Source: an uncultured Rivularia sp. (lineage in GTDB: Bacteria; Cyanobacteriota; Cyanobacteriia; Cyanobacteriales; Nostocaceae). Taken from it: a stretch of 64,000 nucleotides of DNA. The notes beneath the pieces are model-generated. The model did not search any database, was not told the origin of the DNA, and was given only the letters and a program-made list of their open reading frames with translations. This document shows positions 50,720-55,809 of the stretch, in pieces (positions within the stretch are counted from its first letter, which is position 1; every line of letters starts with the position of its first letter). The stretch is taken from positions 3,392,001 to 3,456,000 of the forward strand of contig OY762007.1 in assembly GCA_963665115.1 (NCBI GenBank), written 5' to 3'. The position numbers were made by a program, and so were the translations under genes.

Positions 50720-51904
50720 ATGAGCAGAATCGAAACCAAAACCGAACCGATGACGATTAATTTCGGTCCCCAACATCCTTCGATGCATGGATGTTTCCGA
50801 ATTATTGTCACTCTCGATGGCGAAGACGTGATTGATTGCGAACCCGTTTTAGGATATCTGCACCGGGGAATGGAAAAAATCGCCGAAAATCGCACCAATA
50901 TCATGTACGTTCCTTACGTCAGCCGTTGGGATTACTACGGTGGAATGTTTAATGAAGCAGTTACGGTTAATGCTGTGGAGAAATTAGCTGACGTGCAGAT
51001 TCCTAAAAGAGCCAGCTATATCCGAGTCATAATGCTGGAATTAGCGCGAATAGTCAATCATTTACTGTGGTTGGGACCTTATATCATGGATATGGGCGCA
51101 CAAACTCCGTTTTTCTACACGCTTCGAGATAGAGAATTGATTCTTGATTTATTTGAAGCTGCTACGGGATACCGGATGGTGAACAACAACTATTTTCGTA
51201 TTGGTGGTGTTGCTGTCGATTTACCTTATGGTTGGGTAATTAAGTGTAAGGAATTTTGCGATTATTTCTTACCAAAGATAGATGAATACGAAAGACTAAT
51301 TACTAACAATCCGATCTTTCGCCGTAGAGTCGAAGGAATAGGAGTTCTCAGTCGCGAAGAAGCAATTAATTGGGGTATTTCTGGCCCGATGTTGCGGGCT
51401 TCTGGAGTAAAGTGGGATTTACGTAAGGTTGATCGTTACGAATGCTATGACGATTTTGACTGGGAAATAAAGTGGGATAAAAGTGGCGATTGTTTGGCTC
51501 GTTATGTGGTTAGAGTTGGAGAAATGCGCGAGTCTGTAAGTATTATTAAACAAGCCATTGCAGGTTTACCCGGTGGTGCTTACGAAAACTTGGAAGCCAA
51601 ACGCATGGCAGAAGGTAAAAAGTCAGAATGGAACGATTTTGATTACCAATATATTGCTAAAAAAGTTGCACCTACATTCAAGATTCCCAAAGGCGAACAT
51701 TACGTCAGAGTCGAATCTGGTAGAGGAGAATTAGGAATTTATTTAGTTGGTGACGACAATATGTTTCCTTGGCGTTGGAAAATTCGTCCCGCAGATTTCA
51801 ATAATTTACAAGTTTTACCAGAATTAATTAAAGGTGTAAAAGTCGCGGATATTTTCGTAATTTTGGGAAGTATTGATGTGGTGATGGGTTCTGTAGATCG
51901 GTGA
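50720..51904 (+). CDS. ndhH: NAD(P)H-quinone oxidoreductase subunit H, divergent
   Basis: [26 protein letters not shown]-terminal [12 protein letters not shown]; 394 aa. Confidence 0.95.
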
Positions 51905-52211
51905 TTGGGGATTGGGAATGGGGCATTGGGCATTGAATAACTGTTCACTGCTCACTGATTATTGCTTCTATATCGAAAGGATTATAAGGTCGAATTGCTT
52001 TCATCGTAGTTTAGGCTTGGGTTTGTAGGATTGTAGATAACTGCGATACCTTCGGTGAGCTTCGCTTAACGCCATTATCTCAAAATCTTTTCACTACTAA
52101 TAGGAATAATTGTACTACTTGAGCAGTTCTACCCAAAGTATTACCGACAACCTAACCTCAGAGCGACAAATATTAGAATTATTCTTGATATTGTTATAAA
52201 TGTAAGGAACA

Positions 52212-52422
52212 GAGCAACGCACTGGATGGGGGTTATGCCGCAGTGACCCATTATCGAATACCGAAGAAGAACGATTTGTCAGGTATTCGGACGGTGTGAA
52301 TAATTTAATAACCTTGGACGTTATAGAGTTTTTATCGTTTCCTCTGTTTCGTCGCCATCGAGGGGAGGCGCAACCCTCCGTCAGAGCGGTCTTAGATGGC
52401 GAACGTCCAACATGGTTTGCTC
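52212..52422 (+). ncRNA. Structured RNA candidate, copy 1 (211 nt)
   Basis: Closing stem GAGCAA/TTGCTC, seven internal helices and two loop-loop complementarities; 188 of 195 core nt identical to copy 2. Confidence 0.7.
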
Positions 52423-52510
52423 GTATTTCCAAATGCAATTATATCATTTGATCGACTTGCAACTCTTAATTGAGTTATGCTCCGGATTTAGATAATCCGA
52501 GGTTGGTTAA

Positions 52511-52721
52511 GGGCAACGCACTGGATGGGGGTTATGCCGCAGTGACCCATTATCAAATACCGTAGAAGAACGATTTGTCAGGTATTCGGACAGTGTAAAT
52601 AATTTAATTACCTTGGACGTTATGGAGTTTTTATCGTTTCCTCTGTTTCGTTGCCATCGAGGGGAGGCGCAACCCTCCGTCAGAGCGGTCTTAGATGGCG
52701 AACGTCCGATATAGGTTGCTC
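52511..52721 (+). ncRNA. Structured RNA candidate, copy 2 (211 nt)
   Basis: Closing stem GGGCAAC/GTTGCTC. Five substitutions relative to copy 1 interconvert Watson-Crick and G-U pairs on the + strand. Confidence 0.7.
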
Positions 52722-52761
52722 AAAAATTCACATAAATAATTACCACTTTTGCTGTTAACGT

Positions 52762-52801
52762 GCTTTGGATGATTTTATTATCCAAGGCGATTTTATTTTT
52801 T
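52762..52801 (+). terminator. Intrinsic terminator after the tandem RNA
   Basis: GCTTTGGATGA/TTATCCAAGGC 11-bp stem (G-U pairs valid on +), then GATTTTATTTTTT. Confidence 0.65.
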
Positions 52802-52804
52802 ATA

Positions 52805-52990
52805 GGGAGTTGGGAGTTGGGAGTAGGGAGTAGGAAGTAGGGAGTTGGAAGTTGGGAGTAGGGAGTAGGGAGTTGGAAGTAGGGAGTAAGAAGTAGGAAG
52901 TTGGAAGTAGGGAGTAGGGAGTAGGAAGTAGGAAGTTGGGAGTTGGAAGTTGGGAGTTGGAAGTTGGGAGTTGGAAGTTGGGAGTTGGGA
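52805..52990. repeat. STRR tract (GGRAGTW)n
   Basis: About 26 tandem heptamers. Confidence 0.92.
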
Positions 52991-53038
52991 ATAAAGAAGT
53001 ATTGTATTATAGATGTAATACGTATATTTTTATAATAA

Positions 53039-53654
53039 ATGCAGCGACAAATCTTAGCAGCTTACGACAGCGAAGGCATTTTTGTGTATCAAGCTTTTAA
53101 GCCTTGTATAGCCGAAGAAGCCTTACTTAAAGGAACTTTTCGTAAAGGTTTCAATTTGGAAAGAATGACATGGATAAAACCTTCATTTGGCTGGATGCTT
53201 TATCGTTCTGGTTATGCTACAAAACACAGACAAGAATCTATTTTGAAAATCAAGCTTACTCATGAAGGGTTTCAGCAAATTCTTAAACAAGCAATACCAA
53301 CATCATTTGATCGAGATATTTTTGAATCGGAAAGAGAATGGAAAAGAAGTTTGGATAATTCCGAGGTTCGCTATCAATGGGACCCCCGACAGAGATTTAT
53401 CGTTACGACGTTTAGAGCATCGTGCTTTGCAATTGGGTATTCGCGGTAGTGTGGTGCATAATTACGTAAATACCTGGATTTTAGAAATAGAAGAAGTAAC
53501 CGAATTAGCTCACCATATTCGAGATGCAGTAAATAATAAATTACAGAAAATACCAGATGTTCCGCAAGAAAAAGTTTATCAGGTAAATTCGGAGATTTGC
53601 CAAACTTTGGGAATAACTAATATTATTTCTGTTGACTCCCTTCCCGCTCTATAA
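53039..53654 (+). pseudogene. DUF4291-like protein, +1 frameshift near 53385
   Basis: IFVYQAF, RMTWIKPSFGWMLYRSGYATK, VRYQWDP. Removing one C from CCCCC gives WDPDRDL...RALQLGIRG. Confidence 0.85.
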
Positions 53655-54050: not shown

Positions 54051-54630
54051 ATGAAAATATTGAATAAGTTAGCGATATTTACTGCTAGTGTTGCAGTAAG
54101 TATTAGCATGGTGCAAACAGAAGCAAAAGCCGCAAGCTTTAACCGAATTATCAATTTGGATGCGAAACAAGATACTACTAGTAATCCAATATCATTGGAT
54201 TTATCGGCAGGGGTTTATTCTGTTGATTACATCGGGATGAACGATGGTGGTATTTATGATGCTTGGAATGCTTGGGGAGACGGCGTTACTGAATTCTGTA
54301 ATCGGAATGGAGAAGGCTGTATAAAAGGGTGGATTAATAGCTATCGGATCTCTTTCGATGGTTTCACAAATATGTTTTCTGGCTCTAGTGTTTATGCAAC
54401 TGCTTCACAAGCAATGCAAAATGCTGTTGATACTTCTTTCACCCTTGCATCAGACACGAAAGTTAACTTTTTCATCGGGGGACAGCTATTACAAAGATAA
54501 TGTCGGGGGTGTATCTCTGAAACTATCCTCATCCTCGCAATCAATCCCCGAGCCTACTACTTACTTAGGTTTATTGGCTGTAGGTGGTATTGGAATATCT
54601 ACCCTCAAGCGTAAGAAGCAACCGATTTAA
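54051..54630 (+). pseudogene. PEP-CTERM sorting domain protein, +1 frameshift near 54479
   Basis: Signal peptide; removing one G from GGGGG gives FIGDSYYKDNVGG...IPEPTTYLGLLAVG..LKRKK. Paralog of 55255. Confidence 0.85.
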
Positions 54631-55254: not shown

Positions 55255-55809
55255 ATGAAATTAGTTAATAAATTGGCAATGGTTGCTGCTGGTATCGCTG
55301 TTAGTTTTGGTGTTTTCCAAACAGAAGCAAAAGCCGCTACTTTTAATCAGATTGTTGATATAGATTCCACACAGAATTCTGCTAGCAATCCAATTTCCTT
55401 GATGTTATCAGCGGGAACCTATTCAGTTGACTACATTGGACAGAATGATGGTGGAGCTTATGATGGTTGGAATGCTTGGGGTGGAAGGGTTGATAGTAGA
55501 GTGGGTTGGATGAATAGATATGTTGTATCTTCCACAGATTTTAGCCAAGAATATACATCAGGAAGTCGCTACGGTACTGCTTTAACAGCGTTGCAAAATG
55601 CTTTAGATAGCACTTTCACGCTTACATCTGACACTTTAGTTAACTTCTCAGTTAGAGACAGTAACTATGCAGACAATGTTGGAGGTGTATCTTTAAGAGT
55701 AGCTTCAGTAGCTTCGCAAGCAGTTCCCGAACCCGCTTCGATGTTAGGTTTATTAGCTGTAGGTAGTATTGGTGTTTCCAGTCTAAAGCGTAAGAAAAAA
55801 GCAGTTTAA
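55255..55809 (+). CDS. PEP-CTERM sorting domain protein
   Basis: Signal peptide (AKA|A); VPEPASMLGLLAVG, TM segment, KRKKK. Confidence 0.92.
   Translation: MKLVNKLAMVAAGIAVSFGVFQTEAKAATFNQIVDIDSTQNSASNPISLMLSAGTYSVDYIGQNDGGAYDGWNAWGGRVDSRVGWMNRYVVSSTDFSQEYTSGSRYGTALTALQNALDSTFTLTSDTLVNFSVRDSNYADNVGGVSLRVASVASQAVPEPASMLGLLAVGSIGVSSLKRKKKAV

What the first reader, a model, noticed from the sequence alone, without database searches (positions are those of the whole stretch)
52219..52401. Glycine-riboswitch-like core with altered pocket residues inside the tandem RNA
Seen: domain 1 reads P1-GGAUG-P2...ACC GAAGAAG AACGA UUUG UCA GGU...GGAC-P1. Established: glycine aptamers read P1-GGAGA-P2-ACC GAAG(G/A)AG...CU(C/U) UCA GGU...GGAC-P1 and usually occur as pairs. 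Domain 2 has a weaker echo (AUC GAGG GG...UC UUA GAU). Differences: GGAUG for GGAGA, UUUGUCAGG for CUYUCAGG, GUAG for GAAG in copy 2, and no glycine-metabolism gene downstream. Inference: a variant-ligand relative or a convergent reuse of this fold, giving four aptamer-like domains in series.
Basis: inference. Interest (0 to 1): 0.7.

Follow-up and report, generated by a model that had tools for sequence, protein, structure and literature searches.

The report
Interlocked CyVA-1 RNA, not glycine riboswitch
The flagged stretch is half of a doubled copy of the catalogued but unexplained CyVA-1 RNA, whose two halves are predicted to lock together by crossed loop pairings; its likeness to a glycine sensor is limited to one short motif, and it likely acts as a free scaffold RNA rather than a switch.

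Summary
In 74 homologues only the GAAG/UCAG bulge recurs: GGAGA 0 of 74, the pyrimidine strand that caps the glycine pocket 0 of 74, contact U 51 of 74. Downstream genes lie 41 same-strand and 37 opposite, so it is not a riboswitch. The ~190-nt unit is two three-way junctions joined by two crossed loop-loop helices with covariation support. It is tandemly duplicated here and in 7 genus relatives. This scan reported that architecture, and a neighbouring membrane-protein gene, before on other DNA. Added here: a one-domain CyVA-1 class in metagenomes whose own two loops are complementary (37 of 37) at the same spacing. That suggests a natural RNA homodimer that was fused into the cyanobacterial form, an analogy of architecture with glycine aptamers, not membership. 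Function untested; best guess is a trans-acting protein-binding scaffold.

The parts
52192..52200 (+). Extended -10-like element (TG-n-TATAAA), likely promoter of the RNA
   Evidence: Read from the sequence; not called by the consensus scan. TATAAAT or TTTAAAT is kept at this place in 9 genus loci; -10-like hexamers peak 21-30 nt upstream of domain 1 across 72 homologues (36 against 3-21 in other bins).
52212..52218 (+). 5' strand of a closing helix around unit 1 (pairs with 52415-52422; copy 2: 52511-52517 with 52715-52721)
   Evidence: Fold; kept in the genus; not family-wide (mean duplex -3.3 against -3.2 kcal/mol for mismatched partners).
52219..52297 (+). Unit 1, domain 1: CyVA-1 three-way junction (P1, P2, P3)
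   Evidence: RF02965 75.7 bits, cut-off 41.4; helices covary.
52263..52282 (+). Loop of P3 in domain 1: GAAG (52263-52266) and UCAG (52279-52282), the glycine-like bulge, flanking the kissing strand 52269-52275
   Evidence: Column counts in 74 homologues; GAAG 47, UCAG 33, both 23 of 74.
52237..52241 (+). Kissing helix K1, domain-1 strand (pairs with 52386-52390 in domain 2)
   Evidence: 52239-52388 covaries beyond all 60 tree-based null alignments; helix 93.9% paired.
52334..52340 (+). Kissing helix K2, domain-2 strand (pairs with 52269-52275 in domain 1), preceded by a nearly invariant G-U-tract 52328-52333
   Evidence: Terminal pair E 0.025; helix 97.7% paired; tract columns.
52315..52409 (+). 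Unit 1, domain 2: diverged CyVA-1 domain with an added hairpin (52364-52379)
   Evidence: RF02965 32.1 bits, E 5.8e-5; follows 83 of 85 distinct domain-1 copies at 3-74 nt.
52423..52509 (+). Spacer between the two units; no terminator called
   Evidence: similar spacer in genus tandems.
52518..52596 (+). Unit 2, domain 1 (GUAG in place of GAAG)
   Evidence: RF02965 70.1 bits; differences listed.
52614..52708 (+). Unit 2, domain 2
   Evidence: RF02965 26.4 bits, E 0.0026; own profile 73 bits.
52761..52799 (+). Intrinsic-terminator-like hairpin and U-tract, likely the 3' end; no overlap with the RNA domains
   Evidence: kept after the last unit in the ndhH-linked genus loci, also where there is one unit (L300).
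50720..51904 (+). Context: NDH-1 49-kDa subunit gene (ndhH by inference), upstream
   Evidence: PF00346.
53039..53654 (+). Context: DUF4291 gene in two overlapping frames (frameshifted), behind the terminator and a heptamer repeat array

Best explanation
The stretch is the first of two tandem copies of a CyVA-1 RNA unit of about 190 bases, made of two related three-way-junction domains that are predicted to lock together by two crossed loop-loop helices, and it likely acts in trans as a compact two-fold scaffold or decoy for a protein rather than as a riboswitch. Shown: family identity, the second domain, covariation of both crossed helices, random downstream orientation, failure of the glycine features. 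Inferred: own promoter and terminator give one transcript of both units; the U-tracts lie along the kissing helices as base triples; the one-domain CyVA-1 RNAs pair their loops between two molecules (a homodimer), and the cyanobacterial unit is that dimer fused and diverged. Guessed: the bound partner is a protein, the first candidate being the unnamed membrane protein encoded beside about a third of the homologues.
For: Rfam identity. Domain 2 follows 83 of 85 distinct domain-1 copies, and 120 of 123 matches of a pattern that used domain 1 only (the two sets overlap). In an all-against-all covariation scan of 72 sequences with a tree-based null, 28 of the top 29 pairs lie in the proposed helices, four of them between domains (E 0.008, 0.025, 0.23, 0.81). 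K1 is 93.9% and K2 97.7% paired; slid controls of the whole structure fall to 39-46%. Five of five Watson-Crick pairs: crossed 36 and 57 of 74, within one domain 1 and 2 of 74. One-domain class: 54 metagenome loci, 37 after collapsing at 90%, loops self-complementary in 37 of 37 (33 strictly Watson-Crick; shuffled mean 11.8, maximum 20), no second domain in the flanks of 47; 15 of 15 tested pass the Rfam cut-off; loop spacing 26-29 nt against 27-29 nt in tandem domain 1. Trans action: downstream gene 41 same-strand, 37 opposite, 5 none, mixed families. Expression hints: RNA-library contigs of 189 and 172 nt that cover just the unit, and contigs at depth 488 and 817 over the tandem against 51 for one ndhH contig (contigs show neither strand nor level); CyVA-1 detected at low abundance in halite cyanobacteria (10.1101/761684, one passage). 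Partner hint: 28 of 78 upstream genes are one unnamed ~232-aa membrane family; in 151 genomes 45 have both, 17 RNA only, 18 protein only, 71 neither (kin are not independent).
Against: No experiment shows the fold, a dimer or a partner. In this genome the two loops of domain 2 could also pair with each other through G-U pairs (-5.8 against -6.4 kcal/mol for K2), and with G-U allowed 23 and 27 of 74 homologues could self-pair. One-domain RNAs could close the kiss within one molecule; sequence cannot tell. Against the membrane partner: here its gene lies about 190 kb away, in the ancestral-looking block with pncB-nadD-nrtR, and lacks the C-terminal helix; 17 of 62 RNA-bearing genomes lack it; the Acidobacteriota genome with a tandem lacks it (a MAG of unknown completeness); no hit in the 400-nt flanks of 54 one-domain loci. 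The RNA is patchy (62 of 151 in the order, 17 of 26 genus relatives) and the published detection was of low abundance, which fits a scaffold poorly.
Confidence: 0.6

Rival explanations
1. Glycine riboswitch, or a variant-ligand member of that class, controlling the downstream gene through the 52761 terminator.
For: C-GAAG and UCAG-G flank P3 as in glycine aptamers; weak Rfam glycine score of 15.5 bits; tandem three-way junctions; variants that reject glycine exist (PMC9481103, one passage).
Against: GGAGA 0 of 74, YYYUCAG 0 of 74 (C-U-Y-U-C-A-G-G in 8 of 8 real aptamers), cap pair possible in 5 of 74, contact U in 51 of 74 with G in 15; U-to-G is a published binding-site knock-out (PMC7161355); the position varies within the genus. 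No RF00504 hit in 151 cyanobacterial genomes. Downstream orientation is random and genes unrelated. The terminator starts 52 nt after the last domain and does not overlap it.
Confidence: 0.04
2. A trans-acting RNA with two composite small-molecule or metal pockets: the GAAG/UCAG bulge is capped by the partner domain's strand instead of its own, so it binds a ligand without an expression platform.
For: The purine strand that pairs in cis in glycine aptamers is nearly invariant here (A-G-G-A-G-A columns 64-73 of 74) and pairs with the partner's pyrimidine strand; the U-tracts are nearly invariant; pseudoknots with triples form pockets in several riboswitches (recalled).
Against: The would-be contact U varies (51 of 74); the glycine-type model scores at background; no metabolic gene is consistently linked. 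NAD-salvage pncB is downstream in 9 of 59 homologue genes scanned, at 117-1006 nt.
Confidence: 0.1
3. A self-assembling RNA: the complementary loops pair between molecules or between the tandem units to build rings or chains, as prohead RNA and manA do.
Against: Linkers as short as 3 nt favour closure within a unit; in tandem locus L051 the two units carry different K1 sequences, each matching its own partner.
Confidence: 0.15
4. A 3'-end stability or processing element of the upstream transcript, not a gene of its own.
For: Upstream gene is on the same strand in 64 of 81 units; triple-helix-like U-tracts.
Against: 28 of the 78 upstream genes are one syntenic family; 17 units have a divergent upstream gene; a -10-like peak precedes the RNA; RNA contigs are confined to the unit (weak).
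Confidence: 0.11

Closest known systems
CyVA-1 RNA motif (Rfam RF02965; Weinberg et al. 2017, PMC5737381: one main-text passage seen, supplement unreadable)
   Same: Domain 1 of both units passes the cut-off (75.7 and 70.1 bits); intergenic; Rfam type sRNA gene.
   Different: The Rfam model has 77 positions and no loop-loop pairs. Here the unit is ~190 nt with a second domain and two crossed kissing helices, and the family splits into one-domain self-complementary and two-domain cross-complementary forms.
Tandem glycine riboswitch (Rfam RF00504; PMC4201829, PMC7161355, PMC13648278: passages read)
   Same: Tandem three-way junctions forming a pseudo-symmetric dimer; a GAAG/UCAG bulge in P3; the single aptamer's crystal homodimer mimics the tandem interface.
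   Different: There the domains meet by A-minor and Hoogsteen contacts, here by Watson-Crick kissing helices. There P3 is short and capped in cis by GAG/CUC, here it has 9 covarying pairs and G opposite G at the cap. No GGAGA junction, no expression platform, no regulated gene class.
phi29 prohead RNA (PMC7357161, passages read)
   Same: Three-way-junction RNA whose two loops are complementary and pair with another protomer.
   Different: pRNA uses 4-bp kisses and builds a motor ring with proteins; here the kisses are 5-7 bp with U-tracts, in a chromosomal RNA, and in cyanobacteria the two protomers are covalently joined. No sequence kinship was tested.
manA (RF01745) and EGFOA (RF02955) self-assembling RNAs (10.64898/2026.07.01.735769: abstract, Introduction and Results read)
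   Same: Orphan motifs under 200 nt that oligomerise by kissing loops or strand exchange.
   Different: Neither family matched here; CyVA-1 is not among the three RNAs that the Results describe.

Membership tests
CyVA-1 (RF02965) | Covariance-model score over the gathering cut-off (41.4 bits) | tested here: met
   75.7 and 70.1 bits for domain 1; domain 2 scores 32.1 and 26.4, under the cut-off.
CyVA-1 (RF02965) | Three-way junction with covarying P1-P3 | tested here: met
CyVA-1 (RF02965) | Intergenic, not tied to a downstream gene (Rfam type sRNA gene) | tested here: met
   41 same, 37 opposite, 5 none.
Glycine riboswitch (RF00504) | Score over the cut-off (32 bits) | tested here: not met
   15.5 bits in a shifted register; real aptamers 47-61 bits; own model: no hit at E<=10.
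Glycine riboswitch (RF00504) | GGAGA junction after P1 | tested here: not met
   0 of 74.
Glycine riboswitch (RF00504) | GAAG / UCAG bulge in P3 | tested here: inconclusive
   Present in copy 1, GUAG in copy 2; both halves together in 23 of 74 homologues.
Glycine riboswitch (RF00504) | Conserved glycine-contacting U (taken to be the U of UCAGG, inferred from the passages and the alignments) | tested here: not met
   U 51, G 15, C 5, A 3 of 74; U in both window copies.
Glycine riboswitch (RF00504) | P3a pair that closes the pocket in cis (GAG with CUC/CUU) | tested here: not met
   Pair possible in 5 of 74; YYYUCAG 0 of 74; the purines pair with domain 2 instead.
Glycine riboswitch (RF00504) | Upstream of a regulated gene, with an expression platform | tested here: not met
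Glycine riboswitch (RF00504) | Binds glycine | not testable with these tools
   Needs probing or dialysis.
Glycine-riboswitch variants with altered ligand (Weinberg 2017 PNAS) | Glycine architecture kept, changes confined to the binding core | tested here: not met
   The architecture itself differs (long P3, crossed kisses). The paper was not held; only the summary in PMC9481103 was seen.
pRNA-like or manA-like self-assembling RNA | Complementary loops on one protomer | tested here: met
   One-domain class 37 of 37; crossed in the tandem.
pRNA-like or manA-like self-assembling RNA | Oligomers in solution | not testable with these tools
   Needs native gels, SEC-MALS or cryo-EM.

The most novel reading that the evidence does not exclude
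Probability: 0.08. Interest if true: 0.85.

Novelty: new variant of a known kind. Interest (0 to 1): 0.42.

Why it matters
It corrects a tempting label (not a glycine-type riboswitch) and shows that the Rfam model covers half of the cyanobacterial molecule and lacks its main tertiary contacts. The one-domain versus two-domain contrast makes a general idea testable: that tandem RNA domains arise by fusing a symmetric homodimer, as proposed for glycine riboswitches. Here the interface is plain base pairing, so compensatory mutants and mixing experiments are simple. An 80-nt natural dimer with interchangeable kissing codes would also suit cryo-EM and RNA design. The function stays open, and the two-domain architecture was already noted by this scan, which limits the score.

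Tried and rejected
Glycine model: no hit in the whole window at the cut-off, in 1151 nt at E<=10, in the genome at E<=10 (150 of 322 candidates scored), or in 151 phylum genomes. Own model R1 (8 aptamers, rough alignment, P3 pairs only; a held-out aptamer scored 38.5 bits): of 46 domain-1-type sites searched (2 window, 30 tandem loci, 14 one-domain loci) one was touched, at 6.8 bits, E 8.7. A family-wide closing helix: rejected. NtcA-type site upstream: weak excess only (9 against 4.1 expected, 72 regions; motif recalled). Riboswitch for pncB: rejected on distance and frequency. Assembly artefact for the tandem: rejected, 7 of 17 other RNA-bearing genus genomes have it. Two-domain patterns in viral contigs: 0 matches; blastn of phages gave only 24-28 nt chance hits; a glycine pattern in viral contigs gave 0. 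Of 11 viral matches to the loop motif 3 looked structured; of 8, 4 did. Membrane protein: no Pfam or NCBIfam family, Atlas clusters all hypothetical and cyanobacterial, 109 representatives, confident helical model (pLDDT 88.8), no Foldseek match at E<=0.001, best Z 12.6 and 11.8 to a designed barrel and TMEM45A, within the range common for helical bundles. Neighbours of one-domain RNAs: 95 frames scanned, mixed families, none recurring in more than 2 loci. Literature: 'CyVA-1' gave 3 papers, 2 listed; 'RF02965' gave 0; 'cyva' anywhere gave 353, the 20 listed unrelated. The supplement of PMC5737381, which describes the motif, could not be read and may already mention pseudoknots or paired occurrence.

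Full report
Observation. They lie in a 212-nt direct repeat (52211-52422 and 52510-52721, 94% identical) between an NDH-1 49-kDa subunit gene and a terminator-like hairpin at 52761-52789. A frameshifted DUF4291 gene follows after a heptamer array. The genome holds no other copy.

Is it glycine-like? Slightly. Scanned alone, 52228-52304 gives 15.5 bits with RF00504 (cut-off 32; E about 0.5 over all 4227 families). The alignment takes its P1 from the loop of the real P2, leaves glycine P2 unpaired and skips the distal stem, so the score comes from the 3' motifs. Real aptamers score 47-61 bits and pair GAG in cis with CUC directly above the bulge; C-U-Y-U-C-A-G-G is present in 8 of 8 that I aligned. 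Passages of PMC7161355 name a conserved U as the glycine contact, U-to-G as a knock-out, and the base before it as part of the pair that closes the pocket; I infer that this is the U of UCAGG. In 74 CyVA-1 units (74 of 83 aligned; 8 near-duplicates and one with a long insertion left out) GAAG occurs in 47, UCAG in 33, both in 23; the contact position is U in 51 and G in 15; the cap pair is possible in 5; YYYUCAG and GGAGA occur in none; GGAC in 19, its first two bases being part of a covarying helix. The UU that makes the window look most like a glycine aptamer sits at an insertion; U is at its first column in 2 of 74, and the stretch varies within the genus. A model from the 8 aptamers found a held-out aptamer at 38.5 bits but none of the window's domains at E<=10, while 14 unrelated places scored 6.6-9.7; it is a small, rough model. 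No glycine riboswitch was found in 151 cyanobacterial genomes searched.

What it is. CyVA-1 occurs in 18 of 151 genomes sampled from the phylum, 62 of 151 from the order and 18 of 27 in the genus. Domain 2 follows 83 of 85 distinct domain-1 copies at 3-74 nt; the two exceptions are degenerate and no domain 2 stood alone. An all-against-all G-test with average-product correction on 72 non-redundant units (mean identity 59%), against 60 tree-based null alignments, put 28 of its top 29 pairs in the proposed helices. Four join the domains: 52239-52388 (E 0.008) and 52241-52386 (0.23) in K1, the loop of P2 in domain 1 with the 3' loop strand of domain 2; and the terminal pair at 52334 (0.025) and 52271-52338 (0.81) in K2, the P3 loop of domain 1 with the P2 loop of domain 2. 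K1 is 93.9% and K2 97.7% paired. Crossed pairing is fully Watson-Crick over five pairs in 36 and 57 of 74 units, within-domain pairing in 1 and 2; with G-U allowed the figures are 61 and 66 against 23 and 27. In this genome the within-domain alternative for domain 2 is close in energy to K2 (-5.8 against -6.4 kcal/mol), so the case rests on the family, not on this copy. The four-domain array is a genus-level tandem duplication: 7 of 17 other carriers have it, and L300 has one unit at the same ndhH site with the same terminator.

One-domain relatives. A pattern with the domain-2-type P2 loop followed by the domain-1-type P3 loop gave 54 metagenome loci. The pattern let both strands vary freely, yet 37 of 37 non-redundant ones are self-complementary, 33 strictly Watson-Crick, against 11.8 (maximum 20) in 10,000 shuffles; none of 47 has a second domain in its flanks (40 with at least 200 nt on both sides). 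All 15 tested pass the Rfam cut-off. The spacing between the two strands is 26-29 nt, as in tandem domain 1 (27-29 nt), whose own loops do not match each other. A few viral contigs carry the module too, two with the hairpins in reverse order and some among tRNA genes. The simplest reading is inference: the one-domain RNA pairs its loops with a second molecule, and duplication fused that dimer and let each kiss drift on its own. Closure within one molecule followed by swapping is not excluded. This is where the glycine analogy holds: a single glycine aptamer crystallises as a homodimer that mimics the tandem interface (passages of PMC4201829 and PMC7357161), though through A-minor contacts rather than base pairs.

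Cis or trans. The next gene downstream is on the same strand in 41 units, opposite in 37, absent in 5, and of mixed families; pncB is the commonest at 9 of 59 scanned. The terminator here does not overlap the domains. A -10-like hexamer peaks 21-30 nt upstream across homologues. RNA-library contigs of 189 and 172 nt cover just the unit in two studies, and a third study has deep contigs across the spacer of the tandem; contigs cannot give ends, strand or level. One paper reports CyVA-1 at low abundance in halite cyanobacteria. All this favours a stand-alone RNA; a 3'-end element of the upstream transcript remains a rival, since the upstream gene is co-oriented in 64 of 81.

Partner. 28 of 78 upstream genes encode one unnamed ~232-aa membrane protein, predicted as a helical bundle with a small N-terminal sheet and a C-terminal helix, with no recognisable family or fold. 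In 151 genomes 45 have both, 17 the RNA only, 18 the protein only; 42 of 43 intact full-length forms are in RNA carriers, but the profile was built from RNA-adjacent proteins and kin are not independent. In this genome the gene is about 190 kb away, upstream of pncB-nadD-nrtR, and lacks the C-terminal helix, so shared ancestry of position explains much of the link. I put a physical partnership at about 0.25.

Mechanism. Most likely a separately transcribed, compact, pseudo-two-fold RNA that presents two equivalent surfaces to a protein, as scaffold or decoy (0.6 for the whole statement; about 0.9 for the fold, 0.8 for trans action, 0.4 for the role). That the U-tracts form triples along the kissing helices, and that the GAAG/UCAG bulge is a packing module of the UAA/GAN kind, are recalled analogies, not tested. 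Rivals are listed with odds.

Novelty. The family is catalogued. In the searchable literature I found no description of the second domain or the kisses, but the supplement of PMC5737381 was unreadable. This scan has reported the two-domain form and the membrane gene before (21 notes hold the word, 8 shown); those are repeats, not independent support. I found no note with the homodimer-fusion or glycine comparison, having seen only part of them. Papers seen: PMC5737381, PMC4201829, PMC7161355, PMC13648278, PMC9481103, PMC7357161 and 10.1101/761684 as passages; 10.64898/2026.07.01.735769 abstract, Introduction and Results. Verdict: new variant of a known kind; interest 0.42.

Noticed in passing
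window 53039-53654: DUF4291 gene split over two overlapping frames (frameshift), directly behind the RNA's terminator and a heptamer array.
   Followed up: partly
window 52803-52991 and 51905-51935: Long purine-rich heptamer tandem array after the terminator and a short one after ndhH; of the short tandem repeat kind common in filamentous cyanobacteria (recalled).
   Followed up: no
L090:2537-6623 (G000:C1 3252536-3256622): The membrane-protein gene still heads a pncB-nadD-nrtR NAD-salvage block here, while the RNA, which lies between them in other genomes, has moved behind ndhH.
   Followed up: partly
upstream 40-75 nt of domain 1 in L001, L012, L029, L034, L047, L059, L064, L070: A recurring DNA motif of the form TTC..CC.TAG..CGAYA in front of the -10 element (gapped words enriched); possible operator, not identified.
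   Followed up: partly
L239 and L240 (viral contigs): One-domain CyVA-1-like RNA embedded between tRNA genes (three tRNA hits in L239); L243, L253 and L265 also sit beside tRNA genes.
   Followed up: partly
L222 and L231 (viral contigs): The two kissing hairpins in reverse order (purine loop first, U-tract loop second), complementary to each other.
   Followed up: partly
L305 second unit and L020: Insertions of about 30 nt in the P3 stem of domain 1 with the loop motifs intact, showing that P3 tolerates inserts.
   Followed up: no
L013-L019 and L034, L038: NADAR genes lie convergent on the RNA in one genus, and an RtcB-like gene follows it in two loci; an RNA-repair or ADP-ribose link was not pursued.
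   Followed up: no
window 54051-54630: A PEP-CTERM-type gene that appears split over two frames, next to an intact paralogue at 55255-55809.
   Followed up: no
L095 (Acidobacteriota MAG): A full two-domain unit with both crossed kisses outside cyanobacteria, without the membrane gene in that assembly.
   Followed up: partly
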